Part shown: one piece after another, positions 6,001-27,816 of the stretch
Numbering within the stretch: the stretch's first letter is position 1
How the letters are laid out: each line of letters opens with the position of its first letter
Program-made: the position numbers and the translations under genes
Assembly: GCA_905178155.1 (NCBI GenBank)
Contig: CAJINV010000002.1
Location: forward strand, 8,637,224-8,701,223
DNA length: 64,000 nt
Direction: 5' to 3'
Origin: Amoebophrya sp. A120
Taxonomy: Eukaryota > Protista > Dinoflagellata
Notes under the pieces: model-generated
The model's input: the letters and a program-made list of their open reading frames with translations, nothing else
Databases searched by the model: none
Told to the model about the DNA's origin: nothing

Positions 6001-9000
6001 CGTCCGAAGCCACTTCGAAAGGGAAGGCGACTGGTGCTACTTGACTGTAGTCGTCCAGTGCAGCGGCTCCAGATCTTGGTGCCCCGCTCCGCCGGCGACT
6101 GCGACCCAAAGCACCAGTGGTCGCTTGCAATTGCTCAGCTCGACCGCCTGTCGCGCCGCCACTGCCGTAGGCAGAAGAGCTTCTGCCCGCAGCAAAAGTC
6201 AACATCCCAGCATCTTCCTTGTCACCCTGACCTCCGCTACCAGCGCGGAATAAGTGATCCGGTGGAGAGCTGATTGTCTGGTAATCGACTTCACTCGCGA
6301 CTCCTGCAGCACTGACCCTCGCACCTGCAAACTTCTCGTTTTCTGCCACGACCGGCTCGGCCAGAACGCGCAGCTTTTTCGCTCGAATCGCGAGTTCGCC
6401 CGTGGACAACGGCGTTGTCGCGGTCTGGCGCAAAGCCTCCACGGCTTTCGCTTTGCGGTAAATCCGAACCTCTGTGACTTCGTTGCTGTAAACGGCAGGT
6501 GGAAGTTGTTGCTGCACTGGCATCTGTGAACCTCCGTGGGACAGGTGCAAGTCGGTTTCCGATTTTTCCAGCATCATCTGCATGGTTCCAAATACCCGCC
6601 AATGGAATAACTGACCTGGGGGATTCTTTTCAATCTTTTTCTTCAGCTGCAGCCTCCACTCCAGCATGTAAAAGTCCTGGCTGCGAAGATTTTGTGCGTC
6701 TTCAATGTAATTGTGAATGAAAATCCTCAACTCATCGCCCTCCCGCACCACCGCCACGTGGTGCCAGCAGTCGTCCAGCAGCCCGTCGTGCGTGTGCGGG
6801 TGGTCTTGCGCAACGAAGTCTTGAATTTCGAAGCTCTTATCGCTGCTCGTCCCCTGCTGTAGGTGCTGCCCGTAGTCTAGCGCGTGGAAGGTAGTTGCAG
6901 GAGCGGTGGCTGAAGTTCTGTTGTGGTCCTCGAAAATGGCTTCGTTCGCCGTACCTGATTCTGTGCTTCGATTCATTCTTTCTTGACGAGCGAAAACAAT
7001 CAACTTCGCCTCAGGGTCGTCGACAAGCACGAACAGCGAAAACTGCGATTCCTGACTCGCGGTAGCAGTTGCTGGTGATAGACGACGGGATTGCGCAATT
7101 TGTTCCGGGACCGGCCTCCAATAGAACTCCAAGGTCCACGCATGTTGCTTGTTCCCCTGCTGATCCATTTGGGGACTTAAGCCCGCGACCGCGTCGCTGT
7201 GGTGCACAAGCGTGACGAAAGAGGAGTACTGCAGAGTTGATGTTGAGGACGCCTGCGGCCCGGCGTTTTCGCTTGCTTCAATGCCGCGTGCCTCTCGCTC
7301 TACGCTTCTCTGCATTCTGCTCTCACCGCGAGGCGACCGCGACGTAAAAAAAGGATCATCTTCACCGCTTTCGTCAAACAGCCCCAGGCCCCCGCCCATA
7401 CCAGAAGATCCTCGCTCCCTCCCCGATCCTTCACCCCGCGCAGCGCGATTCGCCGCCTTCGGGCTGCTCAGATTTCGCTGCAAATCCAGGACCGCGATAG
7501 TGTTTTCGCTGTCCGTGCGACGCGGCAGGGTTTTCGACCCGCTTATGCTGGTGCTTCGGTTCAGGTACGGTGGCGACCAATGCTGCTCTCCTGCGTCGCT
7601 TGCGCCTCCACGACGGGGAGTCTGCAAGGGGCTAGCACTGCTGCCTCGTCCCGGCGTACTGCCGGGCGGAAAAAGCAAGTTCTTGCGTAGACCCCCGGAC
7701 TTCTGCATTGCGGCTGCTATGGCCCCGGACCGCGGACTTTTCAGTCGTGGGTCGAGGTTTCTCCCCCCACGCGGCGTAAAGATCTCGTCCGCGGTCCGCG
7801 CATTCGCGCTGCTGGAAGTAGCAGCTCCGAAGGAATGAACTGCAGGTCCTCCGCGAGGAGTCGCCAGGCTGTCAGGGTCCCGCGGCGTCAAACCCTGTTG
7901 ACCAGGCCTTGGGGAGGCGTTTTGCGAACGCGTCTCCTGGTGGGACTGGTGGAGGCGCGCAACCTCGGCCATTCTTGTCGTGAGGTACACGCGCTTCCCG
8001 ATCTCCGAGGCATGCCGGTAGAACAGAAACGGGGGGCCGGTGGGTTGTGCGGGAGGGGGGTCGGTCTCGCCGTCTGCACGTTCCTGTCGCCCATCGGTAG
8101 CATCAGTGTTTATCCCCATATGTTCAACCAGGAGATCCTCCGGTATGTCACTGAAATCAAAGCCAAATTCCGACTGGTCGGGGCTTGGCATCCAGTGCTG
8201 CCCTTCACGATCGTGAAGGCCCCGCGACGACTTCCGCTTCTTCCGTTTGATGGGGTTTTCTGTCATCTGCATGTTGTCCTTTGACGTTAGAGAAACCACA
8301 CCACCAGATGAGCCCCCAAGTCGCTCTTCCGATACGGGAGAGAGCTTTTTGCTGCTCGCCCGACCTGGGGAACTGAAGGCTGACTCATTGTTCAAAAAGC
8401 CAGCAGCTCGCCCTTGCGCGTCGTAGTTAGCCTCTGCTCGAGGCTGCCCCGTTGCGGAAATAGACAGCACGCTGTTGTTGCTGCGTGCGGCCAGACGGAA
8501 TCGCAAGGCGCGGTTGGGCTGCAATGCCGTCCCCCACTGGTCCTCCTGCTCAACGGGGAAAACAGAAAAATCGATGTCCCCGAGCTCCCACTGCGGCATC
8601 GTCCTGGGCGGGGTGCGGGACTTAATGTTGGGTGAATACGTGGTCATGTGATCGGTGGTTAACCTCATGGTCACCAGATAGGCAGCATCAATCATCTGCC
8701 TCGACCCCGGTGTTCCGGGTTCTCCGCCGCGTCTTTCCCCAAAACTGCCGAATTGCAGGTCCATACCAACGGAACTTTCTCCGCCGTCGGGTTTGTAGGA
8801 ATTTTGTAGCTTTTGCGTGCAGGTGTAGTTGTAGGGAAGTTCAAGACCTTGACGACTCTCTGCTGTTTTACTCTCTCTAGGAAAGAGCTCCGCGCACCGA
8901 AAATACGCCAGCAACGTACTGCTGCCATCTTGGGAAAACTCAGTTTGGTGTCCTGCCTCTTTGTGCTGCAGTACTTCCATTTCTGTCGCGACGAGTCCGC

Positions 9001-12000
9001 TCTTTGTCAAAAGTTCTCCAACGTCGAAGTCGTTTGCCGAGCGCACAGCATTCACGACCTGTTCAGCCGTACTTACCGCAGAGTGTCCATGCGTTTCCCT
9101 TTCGTTCTTCTGCATCATGGGCAGCATCGACAACGAACGCTGCACGTCCCCGGATCGCGGGCTTTCCATTGCAGAAACGCCTGGCTTCGGACGTCGCTGT
9201 TGATGCCCATACTCGTTTTCTTGTTTACCACCAACCCCGTCGACAACCGACATCGACAAGTAATACTGGAGGCACGCAACGCTTTCGCGGCTACGCGAGA
9301 AACTGGACCCGAGAATGCTTTTCAAGACAGAAGCATTGGAACGTCTGCCACGACTTGCAGTCCTCTTCTTCAAAGACTTGCCGATCTTCAGGTTCGAGCT
9401 CCTGTGGCCGCCCAGTAGAAGACCCAGCAGCAAGGGGGCGACGTCTTGCTGTTGCGTTTGTCCGAGAACGTTTTGTTGTCGGTTGAGTTGTTCCGTGGAG
9501 TCGTTACTTTTCGTGCGCGGGACAATGTCATCGTCATCGTCCTCGGAGTTGCCCGACGACGCATGCTGTGACTTGCTTTTACGCGATGAAGATCCAGGTT
9601 TTTTCTCTACTTTCTGCTCCTTTTTCTCGATCTGGGAAGAAACCACCTTCTGGATCTGTTCGATTGCGCTGCTGCGTATTGATCGATCACCCGCAGCCCT
9701 TGCTTGACTCGCCCGTCCGGGAAAGAACCGTTCCAGTTGGTTCGTTTTCCGCAAGAAATGGTCGAGACCCACCACCACAGCATACCGGCTTGCTCGCAAC
9801 TCGATGTTGCGCACGAATGCTTTCTTCTCTTCGTCATCGAAGCTGAGAAGCAGCAACCTGGCGATTGCTTTCGCGAGCGATGGGTGAAGACTGGAATCTT
9901 TATGCGAGTCGCCCAGCAGCAGTATACCCTGGTCGACGTCGGACGTAGATGGTGCAGGAGCCGAGCTACTTCTGTGCAGATCTAGGAATCGTTGAAATTT
10001 CTCCCGCTGCTTCGACAATGTCGCGTATTGTTCCTGATTGATCTGGGACAAAGCTTCCGCAAGCGGGTGCGTCAGAACAGTCCTCTGAGGAGTCTTTTGC
10101 TGAGGAGCAACATGTGATGACGTTCCAACTCCAAAGGCTCCTTTGTTCGCCAGATTCATGGAAATCGGAATCGGTTTCTTCACTCCGCCAGAAGTTTGAT
10201 GCTGCTGCTGCGCTCCGGCGGATGACAGAGTTGGCGAGAACGCCTGAAAGGTCGTTTTGCTGGTGGAGTTCGGGAAGGCAGGGCTGCTTGAGGAGGAAGA
10301 ATTGCTGCTATTGGGCTCGTGCGAATCTTTGTTCTTCCCGTTGGCAGCTGCTGAGGAAGACGACCTGCTGCTGCTTGAACTCGACGAATTCGAATTCCCG
10401 GATGACGATGACTCCTTGCTTGCCTTAGCCCCACTCGAGGACGACGAAGAAGAGGTACTACTGCTCGTACCAGCCACTGGGTTGTTGCTCATGCTCCCTC
10501 CCGCGCGCTTCGCGTTTGCGTTTCTTTCCTTCTTCAATCTGACCTCCCGTTCGCGGATCTCTGCCTTAGCCAGGTCACAAAACTCCACCCCGACGGTAAC
10601 AACAAACCGCAGCTTCAGCAGCAAGACCTCCACCACTGCGGCTAACCGCTCGTAGAAAAGCAGCCCCCCGTCGTACGCTAAGACCCGGGCGCAATTCTGC
10701 TCGAACCCCCTCCGCAAAGCAACAGCTCTCTGCTTTTCCGAGTCGCGGGCGGAAAGCGTCTTGGCGCGGGGGGTTGTGAACTTCGGAGTCGACGGGGAGA
10801 CGGATCGCGGCGTGAAGGGCGGCAATTGTTGCCTGCTACTATTCATTTGTTCCACCGCTCGGGGCGTGGGTGACGGAGAGCGTGGCGTGATTTTGTCGAG
10901 CAACTGCTCGGAGCTCGCCAGCAGGTCGTGCTCCTGGCTGCTGCCGAGTACCAAACGCACACACACAAAGTGGAAGACCTCGTACAGAATCGTGAAGTGC
11001 TGATCCAGTTTTTCCTCGTTTTCGTCCACCAAGTGTTCGAGTTTGAAAATTTCAGAATGGCGTTCTACTTGGCGACCGGCCAGTTTGGCGCTAGTAGGAG
11101 TTTTGTTGATGTCCACACCGCCCCGCTGATACCGCAGGCTGCTCGTAGCTGCTGCTGCTGAGGTCGTTAGCGCAGCAGGTCCCGCAGCGGGGGCCAACGG
11201 ACTGAGAAATTGCGCGCACAATGGTGACAGCTGTTTAGTGATGATCATCTGCTGGGTAGTTGTACCTCCCAACATGAAGGAGTCTGTGCAACCTCCTCTG
11301 CTGTTGAGAATGCCCACCGCTTGGCCAAACTCCGGAGTGACCGCGACGAGGTGCAAGAACCTTTCCGTGTCAACATCGAGGGAAATTTTGTCGATTTTCT
11401 CAGTGTCGACCGTCGTCACCAAGCCCGCGTTAGTGCTAGTGGTTGCAGACGTTCCTTCGTCGACGGTCGTGCGCGTCTCGTCGTCAACTACCACAGTCGT
11501 GCTGTGGATATCTGACACGGTTGAAATCAGAAGTAACTTTTTTTGTCGCGAAGGGTTTGTTGACAAGTTTTTCGTTGTTGAGAAAAAGTCAACTCGTCGC
11601 TGCTCCCTTGTGTCTCGCATCAAGACCATGTTTTCTCCATAATTTACCTGCGGCTGCGTAAGTAGCATCGCCGACACGGTCCGCAGAGTGCTGATCATGT
11701 GCACACACTCCACTGAAACCCGTGGCTTCGTGTACATCGCAGCGGGCTGGTTATTATGTTGAAATTGTGATGAAGCTCGTTCTCGTTCTACGAACAAAGT
11801 TTCTTGGAAACTCACTCTGAGCAAGGCCACACACTGCAGCATGGGAAGCGCCACGAGCCAGGCCTCGCGTTGCGGTAGGCCGGGATTATCCTTATCTTGG
11901 CGGCTCATCTTCCGGGGCCGAGTTGCAGAAACTCGGAGTTTCGACCACACTGGCCTTGCAACCAGGTCCGTTGGTGTGGAATTCTCGCTGGGCTTAGAAA

Positions 12001-15000
12001 GTGAGTCCGAAGCAGCCGACCTTCTGTTTTGCGCAGCGGGTGACATCTGCCACAACCGCAAGCCATACGGGTTGAAATCGTTAGGAGAAAAGCGACTCGG
12101 CCGTATTTGCTCTATTGCTTGCGGATCTTTCAACGCTGGAAGTGGGTTGGTCCTCATCACTTTAGTACTTTCCGCAGTAGTTGCGCCCGCTCCTCCAGGT
12201 ACTATTTGTGCGGAACCAAGAAACGGCGTTGTTGCCAGAAGATTGGCCGAGCCCACGAGCATCCCGCGAGTCGGAATCCAGTAGAATACCGCCGAGTGGT
12301 CCAGAAACGGCGTCGGGACGGCTTCGATCGGAAACTCGAACTCCCCCTGGAACTTCACCTTGCTACTTGTATTGGTTGCAGCATTCTGCTGTCCAGCTGC
12401 GGGAACGACATTCGTGTTGGTGGTCCTCGCTACGGTCCCTGTAAAAGCTGGCACAGCCCGTGTAATGAGTGTTTGTGTCCCCGCCGACCCTGGAGGTGCG
12501 CTCTCGGCTCCTTGTTCACGATCACGACCCCAAGAACCATAATTCGGATTGATGTTGTGCATTTCGTCTGGCTCTCGGTTTATTGGAGGAAAAAAATCGG
12601 CTCCACCGACCTCAAAGTGGTCCTCTTGTTGCTCCGGGTAGAACAGGTAGTTGTCACTGCCGACAAAATTTTCTACACGTCCGGCTCGCGACCGCGCCGA
12701 ACTTGCTCGCCGCAGCCGCGGTGGCACGTCGTCGACCGAACTTACGGTTGAACCGAGCCAGGCAGCGGGCGTGACCGTTTCCAGCTGCTGTGCAGATTGG
12801 TAGGTTGGGGAGGAAACGGTGCCGGAACTATTTTCTTGCAATAAATCAGGTCTTCTGATGCCAGCACGACCATTAGTTCTGCCCCCTTGTAGCTGCTCTT
12901 CCAATACGAAGCTGCTCCCCGCCGGCTCCAAGCTTGGTGACCCTGTTTCGATTTGCAAGTTTTTCGGGGCGCGGCGTTTCTGCTTGGAGGGGGTGGGCAG
13001 GTCCTCGTAAGTGTTCGTTTTCGACTGCATTTTTGCGTACGGATTGTTCATATCGGAACGAAAATTATCTTCCTTGTCAGCACCGGGGGGCGCTTCATCG
13101 TCGTCGTCGTGAAACTCCTGATGCTGCTGGTGGTCAAAGACAAGAGGTGACTCACGGAAACCTTCTCTCTGATCTGCTCGCTCGTTATTCGGTCGTCTTG
13201 ACGCGTGATGTGCAACTCCAGAGGGTCCTCGCGTAGTCCTCTTTGCAGGCTTTCTGATCCTGTCTTCACTCTGCTCGAGCTCCCCATGGGCGAGATTTTT
13301 CTGCACCGCAGTTGCAGGATGAAGGTCTCCAGGTGCACCCTCGTTGTTTCTTCTCTGGTGTTGTGAAAAAGGCCCAGGAGGCTGAGCCATTTTGACATTT
13401 TTGCCACTGCTGAGTGCTCCGGCTTTAGACCTCGCCGAGAGTTCCTTTTTCCGAAGCTGACGGTCGTGGTTTTTCAGCAAAATAGGGAGAAGATCTTTGA
13501 ATGCAATGGGCCGGAAGGTGATCTCCGCGTCCCTCTCACGCAAGGACAGAATCCCGGTCGGTAAGAGAAAGATCGCACTCGTAGGCGAAGCGGCGTGAGA
13601 GCTGCTGGTGTCCGGCGGTTCGATATCATGCAACCGCAGAACAAGATTGGTATCCGACAGCGCGGCCGTTGGACCGGAGCCAAAATCGTGATCCTCGTTT
13701 GCACTAGTTGGGAAGGACGACGTTGCTCCGCTGTCGTCCAGAACCACAAGCACCATGCTGCTTTTCTGGCTCGTGTCTCCTGCCGTTCGCAAGCGCAAAA
13801 GCAGCAGCGTGACCTTTTTAGAGGACCTCTCGCCGATTTGGGCAACATGTTCTGTAGTCGTCCTCCTCCTAGCAGGGTTATAGGCGTATTTACCAAGCGA
13901 ATCGGCAATGTCCAGCGAAATGGCATCCAAAATGTCGATGCCAGTTGTCACTTGTTGCGCTGCAGCTGCTTCTCCGCCCGTCTTGGAGGATGGCGCCGGC
14001 GGAGTTACGTCAATCACATCAAAGTGAAGTGAAGAGGAACCCGCAGCTGTTGTGGCTGCAGTCAACATCCCCGAGCTGCCGACAGCTGCAGCATTTGTTT
14101 GCGTCCGGTAGCGAAGCAGCTGTGCTGTGTGCAGTCCAGAAGATCGTGAGACAAGGTAGAAAGACGTGTCAGGTAGAAGCACTGAGTGTTGAGATGATGA
14201 AAAACTTCCTAGGCAGAAGTCCCGCGGTCTTGCAAAATGTGCAGACAGTTGTAATCTGGAAGCCAGCCACAACCGAAAATCCACCCAAATGTTGCCGTTC
14301 AGAATCAGAAAGAGTGCGTCCTCGTCATTTATGCGATGATCGTTGCTCGTGGTACTAGCAGAGGTTGCTTTGGTGCCCGAAACCCTTGTCGACGTGATGC
14401 TGGTCACAGCAAACGCGGTATCCAGCTTTGCAAGCAAAACCGCACTGGCGCTCGGCAGCGGAGCACTGTTGCTTCCCATGTTTGAAGCAGCGGTAGCCGT
14501 TGCTGATGCTGCAGTCGGTGAAGCGACGACTTCCCAACACAGGACTCCGCCCCGTCCACCGACAAAAAGGAGGTGGGAAGTCGCGGTCGTAGGAGCGGAG
14601 CTTCGGCTAGAACTCCCAAAGTTTCCCGGAACCGCATGGATTGAGTTCAGCTCCCAGGTTTCGCACATAATCAGCCTCTTGCTCGTCAAGGTCGACCACA
14701 CGCACAAACAGCCACTGTTTGGGAGAAACTGTGGGCGCTGCTGGGCGTTCGTGTCGCTTGGTGTAGTGCGCGCGCCGCAGGCGATCACCAGGTCGTCAAC
14801 ATTTGCGGCGGAGCAATTCTCCACGAGTGCAAAGTCGGTCGGAAACAGGCCAGTTTTTTTTGATTGCTGCTGCTCCATGATCGCGCTGCTGCTTGTCGTT
14901 CCTGCGGACGTCTGCTCTTGGGCGCTATTTCTCTTCTTTTTCCCCGACGAGGAAGAAGATTTGCAGCTCATTGCCAGCTTTTTCCACAATGAAGTGCTAC

Positions 15001-16615
15001 CACTTGTTCCAGGTTTTGTCACGTTAAACCCCTCGTAGGTCTGGAGCAGCTGCAAGTGCAGGTCTTGAGGATGGTCTTGGCTGGAATAGATCGCGTACAC
15101 CAAGATCGTCCCGCTTCTCGTACTCATCGCAATTTTGGGCGGCTCGGAAGACACCCCGGTCGTCTCGGCGGCAGTGTTTAAGCTTGCGCTGTTCTTCTTG
15201 CCCTGCAGCGATTGAATTTTCGTCGCGCGGCCAACGCCGGGCGGCAGAGAGGTCTGCCGGAGCTGCTGCCCCGATGGTACCTGGAAATAATTGTTCCAGT
15301 TTTCATTCGCTTTCCATCATAAATAGGGAAGCCAGGCGTCACTCCTGTGTCCATACGACCAATGCAATTGCAACAAGATATACTTTCATATTTTCGCGCA
15401 TTCCGAATCCGAATATTGTTTTAGCAGCAGCTACTCTGCGAATTATTCAACGCAGCTGCGAGCGTGCGCACAGTCATACTTGTTAAATCAAGCTAGAAAG
15501 CGTAAAAGTACACCAGATAGTGCCGGAATTTTGTGTTCGCGACGAGCATTTGCATTTGTTCCTGCCTTCGCGTTGCACCGGGAACCGTCGCCCCGCCGTC
15601 CTCTAGCACGCAAACGCAATCACCCTCCTCTAGCACTACGCCGCACCAGCTTGGCGTGAGCTTTTCCACATTCAGAGAGACTTCTGGTCCACCTCCAGGA
15701 GTAGACCCTGCTATCTGCTCGATGGGGACGTGCAAATGAAAGACCGTCCGCAGCTCAGACTTGTTTTTCAAAGTCGCGGATGGCCGGCGCCGGGCTTTGC
15801 CACGTGTCCCCCCACTCGAGGATGATGAAGATAGCAACTGTGCCGGCGCTGAGAGAATCGCTGCCGCAGCACCGCCAACGCCACTTCGGAGGTTCTGTTC
15901 GTTTTGTTCTCTCCTCGTGCTGCTGTTCATCATTGCGCGCTGCTGCTGATAATCCTTGTAGAATCTGCACCCCGGGCACCACTGAACCAAAACGGCGACG
16001 CTGACCGAGTTTGAAGATGGTGCGCGCGCTGCTGCTGGACTAGCGAGATTGTTCCTGCGACTCGATGCTGCACTGCGCACGTTTTCATCCAGCCGTATGG
16101 TTGCCACGGGATCGAGTTGCGGCAACAGCATGTCGAAGTACTCGTATCCAGGAAAAAACACCCATCGATCCCCATCCATTTTTTGCATGACAAATAGTGG
16201 ACTTTATGCATGTTTTGCATGACAAATTGGATGGGGACGATGGGTGTTTTTTCCAGGATAACTCGGCCCATAGCCCGATTTCCGCGAGCGGCGGCAGCGC
16301 AAACGTTGCCGTCGGTTGTTTCGGCAAGGGTAAGGCGTGGTCGTAGCACTTGACAAAAAGGTTCGTGGGTGTGGAAGCGGTGAGAAAGAGGAGAAACTCT
16401 TTGCTCGGAGGAGCAAAAGCGTGCTGATGTTGTAGATCGTCACCGTATGAAGCTCTACTTCTAGCGGTACAGGGTAGCACGCAGTGTCCCGCATGGCTGC
16501 TGCTCTCATCCAGTTGGGAGGAACTGTCGGGAGTGCTCGTGATTTGTGAGCTATTGGGAGCGAACACGCGGTGCACCTCCACTCGCCGCAACAAGACCGC
16601 ACTATCGGACGCCAT
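3098..16615 (-). CDS. Giant ~4387-aa protein: possible degenerate beta-propeller N-terminus, LamG/concanavalin A-like domain (~6410-7140), C-terminal CxxC zinc-binding motifs. Exons 16615-16263, 16141-15514, 15280-3098
   Basis: ORFs 16085-16678, 15493-16188 and 3098-15154 join in frame after removing a 121-nt introner and a 233-nt GT-AG intron; ATG at 16615 (MASDSAV). LamG-like motifs WTLEFYWRP, WHHVAVVREGDELRIFI, VTEVRIY. C-terminal CPCC, CENC, CKRC, CSFC. Confidence 0.85.
15281..15513 (-). other. Canonical GT-AG intron (233 nt, phase 0)
   Basis: CTG|GTGTAC donor at 15513 and TTTCCAG|GTA acceptor at 15281 give RHYL|VPSGQQ, in frame with the 4018-aa ORF. Confidence 0.8.
16145..16260. mobile_element. 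Inverted-repeat introner (MITE-like non-canonical intron), 116 nt, 5-nt target-site duplication
   Basis: ~33-nt terminal inverted repeat (tatccaggaaaaaacacccatcgatccccatcca / tggatggggacgatgggtgttttttccaggata), flanked by actcg at 16140-16144 and 16261-16265. Removing the element plus one repeat (121 nt) restores the frame as LWAE|YFDMLL. Confidence 0.9.
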
Positions 16616-17192
16616 GTTGACTCTAAGACAAATGAACAGGGTCAACTCATAGTCTCGCTTCGCTATGCCCTGAATCAAACCAAAACCTTAATCACACCCA
16701 AAACCACGAACTCAGAATTGGTTTGACAAACACCAAGCAAAGAGATAGAGTAATAAAGTAAACGCAAACGCACAGAAAACTCCACTAGCAAGAATTTTCT
16801 CGACCGCTTTGTCTTGCCTGGTTCGTCACGAGGTGGTGGAGCAATGGTTTTGTCTTTAGGCTTTGTAAAATCTTCGATAATCTTCTTTCTGACGCTCTTC
16901 ATCCACTCTGTTGCCTATGCCTTCTCCGACGAACAGACGACTGCTGACTCATCACCGGCCTCGCATTGCCAGTACGGTGGACTGGATATTGCCAGTTTTC
17001 GCCTCCAAGAGACACAGACATCTGTACTTCTCACCGATCAGTGTGTTGATTCTTGGAAATTCATATTCAGAAAACGAAACAAATTGAAACTGCTTCATAC
17101 TTTCTCGATTGCAGTTTTTTCGTCAGGAAAGCGAAACGAACGAAACGCAAACATAAACATATTCACCTTGCTTTTTGCAGTAAAAATCACTT

Positions 17193-17735
17193 CTACTGTC
17201 CGGGACTACCCTCCTCTTCCGACGACGAGTTCCGGTCTTTCGTCGGGTTGGGCCGCGGCGACTTTTGCATTTCCCCTACGCGCTCCGCCACGCTGACCCC
17301 CAGCCGACTGGGTCGCTTCGGCAACGAGGGGTGCTCGGAGGACTCGTCCGGGTGCTGGTCGATCGAATGCGCGATGTGCAAGCCTTCCTCGTCCAGGATC
17401 TGCTCCAGCGCCTGCTGCTGCGTGTCCTCGCCGAACAGCTCCCGGTCCATAAACCCTTGGGTCGCCGCGTTCACCGGAGTGCCCAAGATTCCCCGGCCGA
17501 TAATCTTGTTGTACAACGGCTTAGGCTCGCCAATACAGCACGCGAACATGTCCTCGAGGAACGTCGATTCGTAGATGGTCGCGAATTGCTTCGCAGGGGC
17601 GGGTTCCGGGTCCGCAGCCGCCGCGTCGGTGGTTGTGCCCGGGACTCCTTCCGGCGGTGGGGTTCCTGGTTCACCACCTTTGCTTTCCTTCTTGTGATGA
17701 TGGTGGTGGTGATGGTGGTGGTGTTCCGCGGACAT
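17193..17735 (-). CDS. Small hypothetical protein with N-terminal poly-histidine tract (may have a further 3' exon)
   Basis: ORF starting MSAEHHHHHHHHHHKK with an ordered-looking core (FATIYESTFLEDMFACCIGEPKPLYNKIIGRGILG); co-oriented with neighbouring genes. Confidence 0.7.
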   Translation of the reverse strand: MSAEHHHHHHHHHHKKESKGGEPGTPPPEGVPGTTTDAAAADPEPAPAKQFATIYESTFLEDMFACCIGEPKPLYNKIIGRGILGTPVNAATQGFMDRELFGEDTQQQALEQILDEEGLHIAHSIDQHPDESSEHPSLPKRPSRLGVSVAERVGEMQKSPRPNPTKDRNSSSEEEGSPGQ

Positions 17736-18700
17736 TGTCAATTTCGCTCCTGGTTGTAGTTACCTAGGTCACCAGCTCTGCCTCTTGCTCGTACTTCGAA
17801 TCAGTGTGCCTTTGCTGCTTGCCAATGAACATGACAACAGTTGCTTCGGGACTCAACGATGAAGCTACCACAGCACTTCTTGGCCTTGCCTTGGACTCCA
17901 ACATCGTTTTTGAGCGATGACGATCAACCTACACTCACAGAAACGCGCGTCGGCTGTCGTTTTCTTTTACGCGTCACTCGGCGAAAGAATTCTCGTCTCT
18001 CTAGCCATGTTTCCTCGATAAGACAGTCTAGTTCCGATAGCCTTTTCATTTCAAACAAAGACAGGAGGAGGAGGATCCTTCACACCTGTTTTTAGCTATA
18101 CATATTGCTACTCAAGTGGAACATGATGTCGCAGACCACCCGGAGGAAACGAGCAGGGAGGCACCGCTCTCAGGAGAAACACCTACTCGGCCAGCATTTG
18201 CTCCTGTTCCTTGTACCAGACGCGCCATGTTGCAACTACCACTCTTCGAGTTGCGGGCACTGAGGTACACTGTTGCAGCTTCTTCTCTTCGAGCCGCGGC
18301 CGGGTGCGCTCCGTCTGCTCACAAGCTTACCCTCTGTGGTGCGGCTGTCTACTCTGGGACGGTCCGGGGCTTGGGCGAGTTTAGGGTCATATCGGGCACC
18401 ATATGTGTTAGGTGCTTGTCCCTTAACTCTGTAGACACTGCGCTGCCTCCGCCCTGGAGCAGCTTGAGGCAGAGCTCACCTCCCGATTTTGTCACGATCA
18501 GGCGCTTCAAGGTGGTAGCATATTTGTCATGCTGCCACCTTCTCTCGGGTGGTTCTGGCCGGACCTTCGTCTCGTTCTACAAAGTCCACGTCTACGAATG
18601 CAAGACGCGAACTTTAGCTGCGCCCTAAAAATCTGAGATTCTTCCACTAGGCGGCTGCGCTGGATCGTGGGGAATTCTAATATGTATGGATCCGCACCTT

Positions 18701-18811
18701 GAATCGAGAAAAGATAGAGATACATCTGGAATCTCTATCAGAGAAAATCAATATCAGGATCTATCGACATCTCAGCAGCTCCTGGTCCAGATGTATATCT
18801 TTTCTTCATTC
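18701..18811. repeat. Degenerate inverted repeat / hairpin
   Basis: gaatcgagaaaagatagagatacatctgga (18701-18730) matches the reverse complement of 18786-18811 (gaatgaagaaaagatatacatctgga) with a 4-nt bulge. Confidence 0.55.
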
Positions 18812-19249
18812 TCCAGGCTCCGCGCCCTCGTTTTCCGCTTTCTCGTCGTGGTCTAGTTTGCTTGTGCTTAGACTAGGCGTGACCTGCTAGCTTTCGTTCT
18901 TGCACCTTGTACGCTCGTGGCAGTGGAAGAGAAGATGTGAACCCGTCCAAAGAAGATGTTGAGAGCCAGAGCCCGCCACAAGAAGATGAAACTCTGCCGG
19001 CGCTGTGGAGAGGGAAATCGCCGACAGGGACCATATTTCTGGATGGAATGCGCACACAGACGCACGGGGCGCTGAGGCTCTACCTACTTTCTACTGTAAA
19101 TGGGCACAGCTGACCCGCCACGTACGGGTGTCTAACTATTTTGCTTCGAAACTCCATCGCAAGGAGTCGGGGGAGATACCGACGTGGCGTCAGTGGTGGT
19201 AAATGTGTGTGTGCGATGGGTCTAACAACTACTCTACGGCATAGCTCCC

Positions 19250-19312
19250 CCTGTTCTAGATTTTTCGGATCTCAGGCAACAAGGAAAAGCCTTGAGCCAA
19301 AATGGCTACGGA
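19250..19312 (-). ncRNA. Dinoflagellate spliced-leader (DinoSL) copy, probable SL RNA gene; leader exon 19312-19291, 3' end uncertain
   Basis: Reverse complement of 19291-19312 is TCCGTAGCCATTTTGGCTCAAG, an exact match to the DCCGTAGCCATTTTGGCTCAAG consensus. It is followed by GCTTTTCCTTG, which can pair back across the junction (CAAGG/CCTTG). No ORF follows. Confidence 0.75.
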
Positions 19313-19479
19313 CAGAGAACACATTGCCTAACGGAAAACAAAGCGCAGACGAAACAGAAACTCTGATCGGCTGCAACAGCAACTGGCGCCGGAGCTATAT
19401 TTTTACATTTGACACGCCTTGTTCTGCGGCCCTTCTTGCGAGCACTTGCGTTTCAATACTGAGGATACACACAGCCGGG

Positions 19480-20120
19480 CTGGGCCAGGCGCCGTAACGC
19501 AAAGGCCGCGGGGCACGCAGGTGTGACCCTGGGCGGCGCAGCAAGTTCGTCTCGCTGACTCGTGGCCCAGCGCACTATGTATACTGGTGACGCCGCCCGG
19601 GGCGTAGGGGCCGGACCAGGAGCACACTAGCGCGCAGGCCCCCCCCCCCGCTCCACGGCGGGAACGCCCGCCCACCCGCCGAAGTGGCTCGTAAGCATAG
19701 CGGACACCCAGGGCGGCGCGGCCTGCGAATTAGGGCAGGCGCGCGCGCGCGCCAGGTTGGCGCAGCCGTTTGGGCGGCGCTGTTCCGGCGGGGCAGTGCG
19801 CGCCGCGCGCACCCATTGAAAATCGCCCGAGTCTCCGCCCAGCCGCATCATGTCCGTCGCCCTCGCTGATCGACATTTCGGCTTGCTCGATCAACTTCAT
19901 GGCGCCGACGTTGTTCATCACCGCTTGCCAGGTGGCCTTTTTTCCAAACCGGCGCCGCGGCGGGCCGCTTCGCCCCAGAGGTTCGGCCTCGGGCCGCTTT
20001 AAGCAGTAGCGAAATAATGCAAAGAGAAAGCCCAAAAGCCGGCACCCACGCACACGCACTCCGCTGCCGGGGGAAACCGTCGCCACAGGTGAGGACACGC
20101 GCCAGCTCACCACGGAAGCA
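19480..20120. repeat. GC-rich block upstream of the SL copy; probable dispersed repeat or regulatory segment
   Basis: Abrupt rise in GC content with C/G runs and (gc)n tracts relative to flanks; only short low-credibility ORFs. Repetitiveness cannot be shown from this window. Confidence 0.35.
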
Positions 20121-20790
20121 TGTTCTTGCGCGTCTCAGATGAGATTTTGACTAATTGCGATAATTCAATAACTCAGATTGGTAAAACTTTATGGGTTTAA
20201 TACTCGTCTTTCTTGCATCAGTTGCGGTGCACACTCGCAGTTGCTGTTCTCCTTCGGCTTGCTGCATCATGATAATAACCTAACTTCCGCTGGTTCGGTT
20301 CTCTCTGGCTCAGTTTCCTCGACAAGGCAGTCTACTTCCGCGTTGGAGAAATCAAACACCTTTTTCTTTGCGGAGTCTCTTCTCGAATAGCGACAAGGTC
20401 GAGGTACCATAAAAATTGTAGTACTTGGTACTGGTAGTTGAGCGAACAAATAAACCCGGTTAGTCATAGTACTTCGGAACAACGGAGGCTCATCTTGTTC
20501 ATGCGCCATTTCAATGCTTTCTTAGCTGTGCAAGTGCGGCGAAGAGTTTCGCTATGAACAAAAAAACAGTGCGGCATGCCGTCTTGTCCACTGAAAAAGC
20601 AAGTCCATCGTCCTGGTGCTATGTTCCGTCGACAAGTACATTGCAAGTTTCCACCTTCGAATCGAAATCGAATCGCGAGCAATTTGAACGGGCGTATCTT
20701 TTCTTTGCGACTCTCTTCCAATCACAGCTAGACATCCTCACTCTACTTTTCTGCCTAGTCCACCCATGTCCTTGTCGCTTATCGGCCATC

Positions 20791-23700
20791 CTACCTTCTG
20801 CTGGAGAGTTCCAGGTATCTAGCTTTGTCTTCCGAACTAGCTTTGTACACACGGGACTCGGACTTCTTGAACTTTTCCAGCAATTTGTTCGTCTTCTTGT
20901 TCGCTGCTAAAGAATTTACTTCCACGTCAAGCACGTCCAAAGGGCGTAGCCAGTGCTGCACCTCCTCCTCGTTCATTTCTTGCAGCGAAAAATCGCTGTC
21001 GTTCTCGATTTCGGAGGAATGCAGGGTACACTCGGTCTCTCCCAGGCTGTCCTGGTCGAGCTGCAGAAGATACAAGTCCTCCGGCGTCTTTCCGTCCTCG
21101 TCGCTGTCCGGCTTTTTCCCAGCGTCACCGCATTGGTCACCCTCCTGTCCTCCATTTGCACCAGAACTTCCTGCTCCATCACCATCTCCAGTGTCGTTCG
21201 AGGTGAACATGGCGATGACTCTCTCCGATTTGTCCTTTCTCTTCTTCCGCGCCTCCTCCAGCTGCGCTTCCCGCTTCCTGCGCTCCTCCTCCTTCTTTTT
21301 CACTTGCTTTTCAAGTTTTTCCAAGCCCGTTTTGAACTTCGGGTAAACGGTTGCCCAGTAGTCGCTGCTGCGATACACGATCGTGTGGTGGTTCTTTTCG
21401 AAGCGCTTTGCTCTTCTCTCCGCCCGTTTCGCGAATCCGTTGTCCTGACGTAAATCGTGGCAGACCTCCCTCCGCACCCGCTCCCAAACGCCTTGCTTTT
21501 TCGTTGATTTCTGCTCTTCTTTCAACTTTTCGGTTTTCTCCGCCAGTGGCAAATGCTTGACGAACTGCTCGTGGTTGTCAAACATGGCCAACTTGCACCG
21601 GACCAACCGCCACCACGCGCGGTTTGCCTGCGCTTTGATCACGGTGCCCTTGTTCAGCCCGTCTTGCTTGTGCGGCTCGGCGGTCGCCGTGGAGATTTGC
21701 GTGTAATCAAGTTTCCCAATCGTCGTGCCCGCGAACACGCTGTGCGCCCACTGCGTCGCGTCGACTTTCACCCGCGGGCGCTGACTGCTGGACTCGACTT
21801 GCCCCCAGTGAGCCACGTTGTCCTTCGTCACCACGCGAACGCGCTGCCCTTTCGTGAAGGGGAGAGGGCGGATGAAGTTGAAGGCTTTTTTCCCGCCAGC
21901 ATCGCCCCTAGCCGCTGCGCCGACGCCGTCCTCCTCCTCTTCGCTCGGCGATGCGGCAAGAACTTCGACGATCACCCGCTTGTTCTTCGTGCTATCCGTA
22001 GCATCAGAATTTGCTGATTTCAGCACCTCCTCCACCCGTCCCTTTACCCAGTCGTCCTCCACCCAGTCGCGGACCTCGACCATCTCGCCGACCTCGTACG
22101 CCACCCGCGTGCGGTGTTTTCGCTTCGTCTTGCTGTTGTCGTCGTCCACGTCCATTTTGTCTTCCTCGTGAAAAAAATCGTCCAGGGCCGCCTCGGTTTT
22201 GCCGCCCTTCAGACACGCCTCCTCGTTGCTATCCTCGTAGTGATCCGAATCCAGCTGCAAAAACGTTGCTGCTTGTGAAGCCACTCCGTCTGCTGCGGTG
22301 GGGATCGAGGGTTGGAGTAGCTTGTTGGAGATGTTATTGGGGTCGTGCTCATTCATTTCCTCCACATCATCCACACCTATTGTTTTGCGGTCTTCTCCTG
22401 CTATCCGCTCGACCAGTGTTTGGTCCTTCTCCCCTTCCGAGCTGTCGAACTCGAACGAGTACTCCAGCTCGGTGTACTCGTTCTCGGTGCTAACGACGGT
22501 CTCCTCCGAGACTAAATGGTCTGTGTAGGACCAGTCGGAATTCGGAAACGCGCCCCGGTAGAAGTGCTGCTGGCGCTTATTGTGCCGTGATACTTCTACA
22601 GCCGCAGTGCTAGTACCGTTCTTGACTTCATCTACCTCCTCGCTTGAGTCGTCCGTCGTCACTAGGACTTTGCCGTGCCTCGCGGTTCCGCCAATAGTAG
22701 CGAAGGCGTTTGTAGGATCCATCAAAGAAGCTGTCGCTAACCCTGTCGCACCTGCACGGCCACTGCCTATCAGGTCTTTGTAGCAATCCGCGGTTGCTTT
22801 CTCAGACCCCTCGTCGAGATTGCCGAGCAAGGTTTCAGCTTTCTTGGGTCCTGGTCGGAGGGCTCCAGAGGACCGCGTTGTTGCACTTTCGCCACTGTTG
22901 TTCGGGAACTGCACTAGGTCCGTCGTGTGCAAGTACTCGTCGGCGCGGGAAGTGAGCGTGAGAGACACGCCGTGTGGCCGCATTTTTCTTGCGTAGGCCG
23001 CGGATGATGAGGAGGAGGATGAATGCCCTGTTAGCTGCTCCGATGGGATAACTCTACTCGCAGTTGCGCCTTCGCTTCTTGTCGCACGAACAACCAGCTG
23101 CGCGGCCTCTTTTCCATATTCGAAGCCAATTTTGCTGCTGAAGCTGGTACTACTGTTTTTCCCGTCTGCCCCTACGCCTGATATGATGCTGCGCTCTTGT
23201 CCCTGGTGCTCGTCCAGTAGTCGTTTGTACAAGCCCTGCACCTGCTCTTTGAACCGCATGTCAGCCCACCCTTTGCCCTCAAACCCGACCGTTCTACTGA
23301 CCGCGTCGACGTGGATGCGCTTTGTCGTGGAGAAATACTTTTGCAGCGATCTCTCCGGGTCTTCGTACAGATCCTCTTTGAGTCTTGACTGCTTTTTCCT
23401 CGCAGGAACAACTCCACTATTTTGGTTTGTTCCCGTCTCGACGTAAAGGCTCCTTTCCGTTCCTGCAACAAGGAGGTCTGCTGAAGACGCTCCTGCTTGG
23501 TTGGCTCGCACCGGGCTCGGACTGTTCAAGATTTTCCGTTTTCCGCTATTTGAGGTCGAGGTTGTTGGCCGCATCTTTGAAGCCGTTGCAGCTCCACCGT
23601 CTGGTACTATTGACGAACCTCCCACGATTGCCGCCGGGAAAAAATCTGCGAAACTCTCCCCAAGTTCATCTTGTTGAACGAAATCAAATTCTCCGTTGGC

Positions 23701-26107
23701 GATCGCGTTTTGGCGGATCTTGTCCAGCACACTGCGTAGTCTCACGGTCGACGGCGCGGTCTTCCGTCGGTACATATCAGCATAGGAGATGTCTCGCGGC
23801 CACGGCGCATAGTTCGGCTTCAGCAGCTCGTCGGAGGATGACTCCCCGCTGCTCGTCGGCGGCGTTCCTGAAGAAGACTCAGCAGGGGCCGCCGCGCTCT
23901 TTTTCTCCAACGCTGTAGTGGCAGTCTTGCTTTTCATTTTTGCTTTGGGTTTAGTTTTCGCGGTAGCGTCATTGTTCTTTTCACCCAGTGCTAGTTCCTT
24001 CTTGGCTTTTGCAGCGGACGCGGCAGTCTCGCCTGCTTTGCGCGGCACACCGTAGAACCCGGTAAATAAACACTTCGCTCCAATCTGCACTGGAAGCAGT
24101 TCCGGCACGACCGCACCAAAGCAATCCCGGGGTTTCTCGCTCTCCTTTTCGGTAGCACCGAGCTTCGGTCGTGCAGGGTCGGCGCCTGTTGGGTTTGTGT
24201 CTTAGTAGGTTTTGCTGTCTACAGGAGGTGTACGAAGATATGTATCGAAAAACAAGCAGAATTGCGTGTCGTACCCATAGTTACTTCCTGCGTGTAAACG
24301 ATACCGACGCAAAATCCTTGATGATTTTGATATAGTACAGCTACCGCTGTAGCAATAGAATGCGATGCATCAAACAAAAAACACGACAAATCTAGATCAG
24401 CATGATCCCACCTTCTTTCACATTCACGTGTTCCGCCATCGTTTCTTGGAAATCGTCTGCGAAGTAAATGTCCGCCAGCGCGGGTAGAAAACAGCAATTC
24501 AAGCAGAATTTTTTCGATCTGTGCAGCTCCCGTATCTCTTTGTTCCGCATCAGCTTCAACTCCCGCTCTGTCGCTCGCCAAGTCGTGTCCTTCAGCCCCG
24601 ACGCAACAGACGCAACGTCGTACATCTTCGTCGCGTACCCAGCCTTTTTTGGTAAGCAATCCTCCCGAATGGCGCAGTGGATCCGCTCTTTGGCGTCGAT
24701 TTTCACCTTTTGGCGGTCCTGCACGAGAAATTGCGGGCCCCGGGCGAGTTGCATGCGCTTTGCCGTGCCGAGGGTCGAGTAGGTATCGGTTCTCTCGGCC
24801 CGCGTCGCGATGCACACCTTCGCTTTTCTCGTATTACAAACCTGCTGGATAAAGTTGATGCGCGCGCCATCTAAATCAGATCTCTGCGTCTCCCAGCGGA
24901 ACACCCGGGCGCCGCGGTCGTAGCGGTCGGCGTAGCGATTGCCGTGCGCGCTGTTGAACTGGACCTTCACTTCTTTCGGGTTCACGAAGAGAATGATGCA
25001 GCTGTTCGACGGGGTCATCGTCTCCCACGTCACGCCAGCCTCCTGCACGCCCAGAATACCGGACCCAAACGCCCCGAAAAAAACCTGGAAATTCTTGTGC
25101 TCCTCGTCTTTGTTTTTCTTCGACGAGGACGAGGCCGCGTGTCTGCCACTGTCCCCAGCTGCTCCGTCGCTATGTTTGAACACGTCGCTCATGACGAACT
25201 CGTATTGATGCCGGTACAGTCGCTGAAACGTATTGCGCTGGTCTTCGTCACAAAAACGCACATTCATGACCGACGCCTGGTCGGCATTCGTGGTGGACGC
25301 CGGGAGATCCTCCTCGAGGTCCAGGTTGATATCTCCGTCGACGTCTTGGTTCTTGTTACTCCTCTTGTTTTTGGTCGATAGCACGAGTGCACTGCTTTTC
25401 TTGTTTTTGAAGTTAGTACCCAAAGAAGTTTCATCTTCGTCCTCCAGGCAGATGACATCGTCGTTGTCATCCAAAACTTCTTCCTGATCCCGCTTATTGC
25501 TGGAGCTTGGGCGCTTGATTATCTTCTTCGGCCTGCTGCTCTTAGCCGGAGCGGGTGGAGAGGAGCCAGTAGCAGGCTCTGGGGCTTTGTTTTTGTTCTT
25601 TTCGTCCGCGATTTCCTCATCGGTATCAGGCAGCAGCTTCTCGTCGTTCAGCTTTAATTTGCCACTACTTGCACCGCCAGCGCCTGCACCCTTCGGGGGC
25701 TTGGATGTTGCGTTTTTGTCACCTTTGATGTCCCGCTCTTTATTCTCTTTCACCGCAGCAGTTTTTGGGGATCTATTGGCTTTGCTCGCTCCCGAAGATT
25801 TGCTTTTCTTATCGTGGTCTTTTTTTGGGCTCGGCTGCCGCTGCGCTTTATCGTTTCTTTCATTGGCAGCTGCACTTTTCTTCTTCACAGAAACCAGCGC
25901 TGTTGATGTTGTATTTTTCTTCTTCACAGCACTCGAGGGTGGCGGCTTCTTGCTTTTCACCGACGCACTATTCTTCCTGACCGGAGCGGGGCTCGGACTC
26001 CCCCGTCTCGCGTTTTTCGCAGCAGGTTTGTGCTTTTTTGCGTCTTTTGGTTTCACCTTCTGCGCAGCGCCTTTTTTCATCTGGATCTTCTTGGGCGGGG
26101 GCGGCAT
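20791..26107 (-). CDS. ~1700-aa putative chromatin-associated protein: Lys/Ala/Pro-rich N-terminus, DUF3427 (SRA/PUA-like) domain, tandem Agenet/Tudor-like repeats, C-terminal coiled coil. Two exons
   Basis: ORF 24392-26185 (ATG at 26107, MPPPPKK) joins ORF 20791-24108 through a phase-1 GT-AG intron. Motifs IILFVN..RYADRY..VFRWETQ..VCIATR..YSTLG and YEVGEMVEVRDWVEDDWVKGRVEEV / FIRPLPFTKGQRVRVV..WGQV. Confidence 0.8.
24186..24411 (-). other. Canonical GT-AG intron (phase 1); acceptor at 24186 (CAG) or 24201 (AAG)
   Basis: GAAG|GTGGGA donor at 24411. Both acceptors are in frame and lie downstream of the in-frame TAA that bounds the second exon, which has no ATG of its own near its start. Confidence 0.65.
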
Positions 26108-27816
26108 CTTTGAAAACGTCAATGTTGTTAGGAACAATCTCCGCGATCGGTATCTATACTTGAGTATCAGGTCAGAAGAGATCAAGATAGGCAGAAAACA
26201 AAGATACGTCCATGATAGAGTCGTGTGGCCGAAGTCTTGAGGCTTTCGAACATTCTATACTTCTACACAAGATGCTCGTCGTGCGATTGTGAAGTAGCGC
26301 CGTAACATAAAAGATGACGCGCATCTTTCGGTCTCAAACATCTTTCTCGAATTCGGATCAATCTACACACAAACCGCTGTGGGTGGTGGTAGATAAAATG
26401 CTGCTCCTCTTGTAAACTGAAATTGAATGTGTCTTCCACTTCTCATCATGGTCAACGACGTGCCGACATCCTCAAATTGCGCAACACGCCTGATGAAGGC
26501 TGTTTACTACTGACTACGTAGACTTTCTGCGTTGCATGATTTTCGCTCATAGGCGGCGTGTGAGATGGCACTTTCTGTTGCTCCTTAACCTTATACTAGA
26601 CTCGTCTTCATCTCACGCATAAAATTTTGAAACACCACGCCACTCCGCTGCGACGAACAAGTTCCCGTACCAAAAAACACACAAACGCGTTGTCCGCCTT
26701 TTATTGCGTGCGGAAGTTGTGCCGACAAGCAACTAGTTATCTTTTTGCATGCATGCTACAACCGCTGTCCTTTTGACAAAATTCAACAAAAAAGAAATAA
26801 TCTCAATTGTGACCACATTCACACAAGCACAGTATTCTCGTAAATCGATCCATGTTGGCGGATGGAAACTTAATGTGCTTTGGCGGCAATTGTTTTTGCA
26901 GCAGCGATTTTCTACATTTGAGCACAAGATAAGGGTTCGTTTATTGCAGGAGTAGAACGGAAGAAGATCATTAAGACAGAGATTCACTTCGTACCAGCCA
27001 TACTAGTCCTAACGTAATTGCTTGCGTGACGAAAAAAAAGTATCTGTATTGACAAGAATGCTTGCATGTAATTGAGATGCATTGTAACGCTTGATGATAG
27101 TTGCTCTTGCTACTTAAAGAGGTATACTTTCTTTTTTAGTCAAGTATATTCGGTTGCCTCTTCTGGACATTCAGGCGCGTAGAGGGTCTAGACCTAGATC
27201 AAAGTTCAAAACGATCGGGCTTTTACATCCATACGACGATCAGAGCGATATTCTCTAGAGTGCACGTGAGGCAGGAAAGTTGTCGAATACAACATACTTG
27301 TAGTACCAGTCGTGATACCAATGTGGATTCAGCGCCTGCAGCACAGCAGGTGCCGCTATGATGATTTAAATCTGTTCGACTCTAAGCCTTAGATTGTCCC
27401 TTATCGACTCCTATTCTTCTACGTCCCTGGAGTCTCATTATAGCTTGAGTAGGTAGTTGTTGGCTTTGGAAAGACGCGGCGGAAGAAGTGCTGTCGTTTT
27501 GTGCTGTTTTTTGGGTGCCTTGCTGCACCCCTTTGGTTATTTGTCGCCAAAGATTCCGGTCGAGACAGTCGCGAACCGTTGCGCGCCTTTTGGTCACGTC
27601 TGCGTGAACTTCATGCAGCCAGGTGCCGCTATATTCTCAATCTCAACAACGCAACGAGAGAAACTAATTATAGCAGGAGCCCAGGCCTATTTTCCAATTT
27701 TTATGTACTTACTTTCCGAAGCTGTCCTTTTCTTTCCGTGTTGCATGCTAATTTTTCAAAAACTGTCCTATGTGTTATAGTACTTATTTCTATTGCATCC
27801 AAAACTGGCAACAGCA

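What the first reader, a model, noticed from the sequence alone, without database searches (positions are those of the whole stretch)
16140..16265. Young transposon-like intron with no usable GT-AG pair
Seen: a 116-nt element with near-perfect ~33-nt TIRs (TAT-N7-AAA start) and an exact 5-nt TSD splits a coding exon. Removing 121 nt fuses the frames, giving boundaries such as GT..GA (16262-16142) or TT..AG. The nearby GT-AG option is 122 nt and frameshifts into a stop at 15930. Established: IR-bearing non-canonical introns are described in Amoebophrya, but to my knowledge the splicing machinery and mobilising transposase are unresolved. High TIR identity suggests recent insertion.
Basis: partly seen in the sequence, partly recalled or inferred. 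Interest (0 to 1): 0.8.

Follow-up and report, generated by a model that had tools for sequence, protein, structure and literature searches.

The report
Known Amoebophrya transposon intron, cleanly removed
A 116-base hairpin-shaped mobile DNA copy sits in a gene of the marine parasite Amoebophrya A120 and is missing, with five flanking bases, from transcript-like assemblies; it is an ordinary, already annotated member of this parasite's published "introner" introns, whose removal, likely by a loosened spliceosome, is still unexplained.

Summary
A 116-nt element (16145-16260) has inverted ends matching at 32 of 34 columns and an exact 5-nt duplication. It interrupts a minus-strand exon. Three RNA-like contig sets of one sample skip exactly 121 nt; the DNA run does not. 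None of the six equivalent cuts is GT-AG. The 122-nt GT-AG option and the in-frame 124-nt GA-AG and 127-nt GC-AG options were not seen. The DNA run holds many relatives with other flanks.

It is not new. The genome is Amoebophrya A120, and the public gene model GSA120T00010462001.1 already removes this intron. The class was published in 2021: TAT-N7-AAA ends, 3-5-nt repeats, 29,850 copies. The likely cut is TT..AG (16261-16141), one base before and four after the hairpin. This copy cannot prove that, because its duplication is perfect; the scan proposed that rule earlier on other DNA. Removal by a loosened spliceosome is my best guess. The mobilising enzyme is unproven, but a 2025 paper gives an integrase-like lead. 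"Young" is plausible but undated. Interest is low.

The parts
16145..16260 (.). Introner element, 116 nt, TAT...ATA, no coding capacity
   Evidence: high depth and many different flanks in DNA run X1
16145..16178 (+). Left terminal inverted repeat (TAT-N7-AAA start)
   Evidence: 32 of 34 columns match the right arm
16228..16260 (-). Right terminal inverted repeat
16140..16144 (.). 5-nt target-site duplication, copy at the 3' end of the intron; supplies an AG
16261..16265 (.). 5-nt target-site duplication, copy at the 5' end of the intron
16174..16227 (.). Two internal 22-nt direct repeats (16174-16195, 16206-16227; 91% alike) with a near-palindromic core; possible transposase-binding subterminal motif (inferred)
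16141..16261 (-). 121-nt intron in the favoured register (TT..AG). The length is shown; the register is one of six equivalent ones and is inferred
   Evidence: register from earlier scan notes and the published NT-AN pattern
16262..16615 (-). Coding exon 1 of the host gene (118 codons from the ATG at 16615)
15512..16140 (-). Coding exon 2 of the host gene
15281..15511 (-). Canonical GT-AG intron (231 nt) of the same gene; internal control
   Evidence: (2 of 3 RNA-like runs)
15178..15280 (-). Exon 3 up to the stop of the 361-aa model GSA120T00010462001.1

Best explanation
This is a 116-nt element with inverted ends and a 5-nt duplication, one of many related copies in Amoebophrya A120, that interrupts a coding exon and is absent with five flanking bases from transcript-like assemblies; it was likely inserted by a transposase acting from elsewhere and is likely spliced out by a loosened spliceosome guided by its predicted hairpin. 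Steps: (1) Insertion made the 5-nt duplication (duplication and dispersed family shown; enzyme inferred, best lead an integrase-like protein). (2) In the pre-mRNA the arms fold into a long stem (predicted, -68 kcal/mol). (3) The cut falls 1 nt before the stem and 4 nt after it, giving TT..AG at 16261-16141 (inferred; length shown, register not resolvable here). In that register the element's first T is intron position +2, and the duplication supplies the 3' end, here with A at -2. (4) Element plus one duplication is lost, so the original reading frame is restored without a scar (shown at contig and gene-model level). Odds: A120 introner removed as 121 nt, about 0.9; spliceosome with the TT..AG register, about 0.55-0.6.
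For: Joint 16139->16261 (121 nt, 5-nt ambiguity) in X3, X4 and X5 (3 of 3 runs, one sample) and not in DNA run X1. These runs also skip two GT-AG introns (231 nt in 2 of 3; 226 nt in 3 of 3) and have zero depth in bins 19325-19808 and 26585-27068, so they behave as RNA. The 121+231 model is identical to public protein P0002 = CAD7935342.1, Amoebophrya sp. A120. In X1, summed contig depth is 10,946-12,704 at 16198-16202 and 54,790 at 16236 against 43 in the flanks (not a copy number), and 12 + 15 contigs end at 16144/16145 with unlike flanks. Hairpin z = -9.5, 0 of 200 shuffles as stable. Both exons score best in the fused frame (+10.9, +10.0); the element read-through scores -4.3. Matches Farhat's A120 definition; A120 keeps 83 of 89 spliceosome proteins and U2, U4, U5, U6 but no U1 was detected. 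8 of 9 listed A120 non-canonical pairs are NT-AN, TT-AG among them; Gozashti fam1 has NT at 892 of 1322 donors and AN at 864 of 1322 acceptors. In-frame GA-AG and GC-AG options 3 and 6 nt upstream are not used in the contigs, which suggests the element, not a donor dinucleotide, sets the 5' cut.
Against: The duplication is perfect, so this copy cannot fix the register. The 1+4 rule comes from unreviewed earlier scan notes that I could not test here: this is the only TAT...ATA element with a duplication in the window. The published NT/AN excess may partly reflect aligners that favour GT, CT, AT, AG, AC (recalled), and marginal counts force only 434 of 1322 copies to be both. All RNA evidence is assembled contigs of one sample, which drop rare forms; piece and loose-end tables were cut (586 and 73 rows not shown). 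No lariat, no branch point and no knock-down evidence; the element's 3' end has no good U2 branch match by eye. A hairpin between short direct repeats is also the signature of reverse-transcriptase skipping (recalled).
Confidence: 0.58

Rival explanations
1. The same 121 nt are removed from the RNA by a second, non-spliceosomal route that cuts at the base of the hairpin and ligates, as suggested for euglenid nonconventional introns.
For: Very stable stem joining both ends; no U1 detected in A120 and no clear dinucleotide signature reported; euglenid TIR introns are released as full-length circles (review section).
Against: A120 keeps most of the spliceosome; listed junctions lean to NT-AN, which resembles GT-AG; in the tunicate Fritillaria similar TIR/TSD introns are removed by the spliceosome.
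Confidence: 0.22
2. The skip is a reverse-transcriptase artefact across a hairpin between direct repeats, and the real mRNA keeps the element (a broken allele).
For: Strong hairpin plus exact 5-nt direct repeats; all RNA evidence is cDNA-derived contigs of one sample; no ortholog shows the protein is conserved.
Against: All three runs carry the skipped form, and no listed contig bridges exon into element at this locus (tables truncated). Retention truncates at 176 codons, whereas both exons look coding in the fused frame. Tens of thousands of such elements sit in A120 genes.
Confidence: 0.08
3. The spliceosome uses another register (GT..GA, 16262-16142), or splices the 122-nt GT-AG intron and one G is then restored.
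For: GT..GA keeps a true GT donor and gives the same product; a GT-AG pair lies one base out of register.
Against: GA acceptors are rare among annotated fam1 junctions (7 of 1322); Farhat estimate editing at only 2-4% of boundaries; neither option generalises to copies whose duplications lack GT or AG.
Confidence: 0.08
4. The element is excised from DNA (somatic excision or an empty allele), so transcripts come from element-free templates.
For: Precise loss of element plus one duplication is what a clean excision would give.
Against: DNA run X1 shows both element-flank junctions at background depth (43-45) and no joint across the site, though contigs drop rare variants and X1 may be the assembly's own source.
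Confidence: 0.04

Closest known systems
Introner elements (IEs) among the non-canonical introns of Amoebophrya sp. A120 (Farhat et al. 2021, PMC7789003)
   Same: Same strain; TAT-N7-AAA start, inverted ends, 3-5-nt direct repeat at the boundary, hairpin, repeated family, no transposase inside, non-GT-AG junction; TT-AG is among the listed A120 pairs (2%); the public gene model removes this intron.
   Different: Arms are longer (about 33 nt) than the 8-20-nt motif quoted, and the intron is shorter (121 nt) than the 240-nt A120 mean; neither lies outside the family range in Gozashti's table (terminal repeats of about 10 nt up to whole-element palindromes). I could not assign it to a numbered family.
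A120 introner family 38 (Gozashti et al. 2025, PMC12130899)
   Same: 5-bp duplication and TA/TA termini, TIR DNA element acting as an intron.
Ginger2/TDD transposons (Bao et al. 2010, PMC2836005)
   Same: TIR elements moved by an integrase-like enzyme; TDD-4/5 make 5-bp duplications.
   Different: Ginger termini are TGTNR; this element starts TATCC.
Non-canonical TIR/TSD introns of Fritillaria and of euglenids (review PMC11282704, section 6)
   Same: MITE-like introns without GT-AG, ends brought together by inverted repeats.
   Different: Fritillaria favours AG-AC/AG-AT with the spliceosome shown to act; euglenid introns have CAG/CTG motifs and leave as circles; neither is tested here.

Membership tests
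Amoebophrya A120 introner element (Farhat 2021) | Lies in the A120 genome | tested here: met
   Host protein is CAD7935342.1 / GSA120T00010462001.1, Amoebophrya sp. A120
Amoebophrya A120 introner element (Farhat 2021) | Inverted repeat starting TAT, 7 variable bases, then at least 3 A | tested here: met
   16145 onward
Amoebophrya A120 introner element (Farhat 2021) | 3-5-nt direct repeat at the exon/intron boundary | tested here: met
   Exact 5 nt
Amoebophrya A120 introner element (Farhat 2021) | Removed from RNA without GT-AG ends | tested here: met
   121-nt joint in 3 of 3 RNA-like contig sets of one sample, absent from DNA run; none of six cuts is GT-AG
Amoebophrya A120 introner element (Farhat 2021) | Repeated family in the genome | tested here: met
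   Depth 250-fold or more above flanks and 27 contigs ending at the left terminus with unlike flanks in X1; no second copy in this window
Amoebophrya A120 introner element (Farhat 2021) | Predicted hairpin joining both ends | tested here: met
   -68 kcal/mol, z -9.5
Amoebophrya A120 introner element (Farhat 2021) | Strain-specific position (empty site in the A25 ortholog) | tested here: inconclusive
   No ortholog found
MITE with a cognate autonomous transposon | Full-length partner with the same termini and a transposase | not testable with these tools
Ginger DNA transposons | TGTNR termini | tested here: not met
   Element starts TATCC; definition
Ginger DNA transposons | 4-bp (Ginger1) or 5-bp (TDD-4/5) duplication | tested here: met
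   5 bp
U2-type spliceosomal intron | GT/GC/GA donor with AG acceptor | tested here: not met
   The 122, 124 and 127-nt options exist but the contigs show 121 nt
U2-type spliceosomal intron | Lariat intermediate and dependence on U2/U6 | not testable with these tools
   Raw-read runs X9-X11 had 0 reads on this stretch

The most novel reading that the evidence does not exclude
A120 introners are removed by a U1-less spliceosome that has dropped the terminal G-G requirement and takes its coordinates from the hairpin: cut 1 nt before TAT (so the element's T is always intron +2) and 4 nt after ATA, with a preference for A at -2 supplied by the centre of the 5-nt target, and possibly one of the terminal ATA adenosines as an ultra-close branch point. 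This copy would be the cleanest test substrate, because it offers GT, GA and GC donors within 6 nt of a perfect AG and still gives the 121-nt TT..AG product.
Probability: 0.3. Interest if true: 0.6.

Novelty: already known. Interest (0 to 1): 0.17.

Why it matters
As a single copy it adds little: the class and this gene model are public. Its use is as a test case for an open question, how Amoebophrya removes tens of thousands of introns without GT-AG ends and apparently without U1. Here normal-looking donors and a perfect AG are on offer, yet the product follows the element's geometry. If the hairpin-ruler reading holds, any TAT...ATA insertion in either orientation is tolerated without a scar, which would explain how these transposons flooded coding exons.

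Tried and rejected
Terminus patterns gave 0 hits in metagenome and viral contigs. Raw-read RNA runs X9-X11 laid 0 reads on 15101-16900, so they are no test; X8 held only 2 contigs on the element interior and none on the exons. No run was on record as RNA holder; X3-X5 are treated as RNA from their behaviour. Orthologs: none for exon 2, the full protein or the downstream ORF; exon 1 gave only the gene's own model and two low-complexity hits, P0003 and P0004, which I rejected. No Pfam family for either exon; no Rfam match in 15000-28500. A second TAT...ATA candidate at 12581-12843 was rejected: no duplication, inside an open 4072-codon frame, and such pairs are as common in shuffles (5 real against 4-11). 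The terminus motif was not found in Gozashti file 3, which turned out to be a virus-hit table and so no test. Stentor-like branch idea: Stentor's branch A is at -6 (position 10 of 15), while the element's adenosines fall at -5 and -7 and lie in the stem, so it stays a speculation. I first read the spliced-leader match at 19291-19311 as the single SL gene (note); contig ends place it at the head of a multi-copy repeat instead, so I dropped that reading.

Full report
Observation. The element spans 16145-16260 (116 nt) and is flanked by an exact 5-nt repeat at 16140-16144 and 16261-16265. Its arms match at 32 of the first 34 aligned columns, with weaker pairing further in. It is 40.5% GC between exons of 57% GC and holds two internal 22-nt direct repeats. 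It is the longest inverted repeat within 1.5 kb spacing in the window, and 0 of 40 Markov simulations gave a comparable arm pair with a duplication. On the transcribed (minus) strand it folds into one long stem of -68 kcal/mol, z -9.5.

Splice options. Removing 121 nt fuses the frames; because of the duplication six cuts give the same product, none GT-AG. The 122-nt GT-AG option ends the frame at 187 codons (stop 15932-15930) and retention at 176 codons.

RNA and DNA evidence. Of 11 listed runs I laid 8. Contig sets X3, X4 and X5 (one sample; RNA by guess) all show the joint 16139->16261, 121 nt with 5 nt of ambiguity; DNA run X1 does not. They also skip two GT-AG introns (231 nt in 2 of 3 runs, 226 nt in 3 of 3) and lack cover in two intergenic bins, so they behave as spliced RNA. 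X1 carries both element-flank junctions at background depth. Its summed depth is 10,946-12,704 inside the element and 54,790 near the inner end of the right arm against 43 outside (the tool warns this is no copy number), and 12 + 15 contigs end at 16144/16145 with unlike flanks: a dispersed family with a sharp end. X1 may be the assembly's own source. Limits: contigs drop rare forms, and 586 pieces and 73 loose ends were not shown. Raw-read runs X9-X11 laid no read here and are no test.

Identity. A profile search with exon 1 returned a 361-aa protein, identical to the model that removes 121 and 231 nt and to none of the other seven models. It is CAD7935342.1, gene model GSA120T00010462001.1 of Amoebophrya sp. 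A120. So this intron is already removed in the public annotation; that model probably rests on the same kind of RNA data and is not independent proof. The protein has no Pfam family in its two main exons and no homolog, so no empty-site check was possible. Both exons score as coding in the fused frame.

What is known. Farhat et al. 2021 (PMC7789003; I read the abstract, sections 10, 12 and 16, passages covering section 11, and supplement search hits; figures not visible) define A120 introners by a TAT-N7-AAA inverted repeat and 3-5-nt direct repeats, count 29,850 in 1,954 families, report no U1 snRNA and no transposase in A120, and leave the mechanism open. Every feature I could test is met. 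Gozashti et al. 2025 (PMC12130899; passages, supplement legends, 56 of 58 A120 rows of supplement file 8) describe family 38 with TIRs and ORFs similar to Copia/Gypsy putative transposase. Their table notes a 5-bp duplication and TA/TA termini and labels it Ginger, while the text says it lacks Ginger termini. Ginger termini are TGTNR (PMC2836005, passages), which this element lacks. Four searches found no paper that resolves the splicing route or states a fixed cut; the library lacks most subscription papers, and I know Roy et al. 2023 only through a review (PMC11282704, passages and section 6).

How it likely works. A transposase from elsewhere inserted the element and duplicated 5 nt (enzyme inferred; the integrase-like lead fits the 5-nt duplication). 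In the pre-mRNA the stem brings both ends together (predicted). Earlier unreviewed notes of this scan, on other A120 windows, report a fixed cut 1 nt before TAT and 4 nt after ATA. I could not test that, since this window has no second element with a duplication. Applied here it gives TT..AG at 16261-16141, after an exon ending in AG. Published counts lean the same way: 8 of 9 listed A120 non-canonical pairs are NT-AN, and fam1 has NT at 892 of 1322 donors and AN at 864 of 1322 acceptors. These counts are not decisive: aligners favour some of these dinucleotides (recalled), and only 434 of 1322 must be both. A spliceosome that keeps U+2 and A-2 but relaxes the two terminal G, which pair with each other in the active site (recalled), is the smallest change that fits. 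What this copy adds is modest: GT, GA and GC donors lie 1, 3 and 6 nt from the used cut. The in-frame ones would escape nonsense decay, yet the contigs show only 121 nt.

Rivals. A second hairpin-guided route (0.22); reverse-transcriptase skipping across the hairpin, which cDNA contigs cannot exclude (0.08); another register or G restoration (0.08); DNA excision (0.04).

Age. The perfect duplication and close arms fit a recent insertion, but selection for the stem could keep the arms alike, relatives differ at several places, and no empty site was found. The age is undetermined.

Verdict. Real, spliced, and already known as a class and as an annotated intron. Interest 0.17. The bold reading, a hairpin-measured NT..AN code for a U1-less spliceosome, has probability about 0.3 and needs genome-wide and lariat data.

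Noticed in passing
window 18063-19312, minus strand: A roughly 1.25-kb multi-copy repeat (X1 bin depth 350-770 against 43) headed by an exact dinoflagellate spliced-leader match at 19291-19311 (0.01 expected by chance). It has no long open frame; probably a decayed SL-capped retro-copy. Farhat report a single complete SL-coding sequence in A120, which a multi-copy SL-headed repeat may not fit; an earlier scan note describes a 1.4-kb SL-headed repeat elsewhere.
   Followed up: partly
window 15281-15513 and 3101-15316, minus strand: The host gene's 231-nt GT-AG intron leads to a stop at 15180 (361 aa). A GT donor 2 nt upstream (233-nt intron) would join it in frame to the 4072-codon downstream ORF, giving 4387 aa. 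Contigs show only 231 nt but run on into the long ORF, so the short gene may be co-transcribed with, or split from, the giant one.
   Followed up: partly
window 27359-27575: Short intergenic repeat; about 40 nt (27359-27399) are shared with abundant RNA-like contigs that run on unlike at both sides; no Rfam match.
   Followed up: partly
whole window, minus strand: All long ORFs lie on one strand, and three are very long without stops (4072, 2971, 4550 codons), an unusually intron-poor region for A120; only one introner with a duplication was found in 64 kb.
   Followed up: no
window 51895-56200: About four diverged 1.2-kb tandem units (66-76% identity) inside the 4550-codon ORF, which has PDZ-domain matches.
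   Followed up: no
window 16170-16237 in run X8: A run of another sample holds contigs similar to the element's interior but continuing into a different terminus, and none of the host exons: possibly a related family or strain.
   Followed up: no
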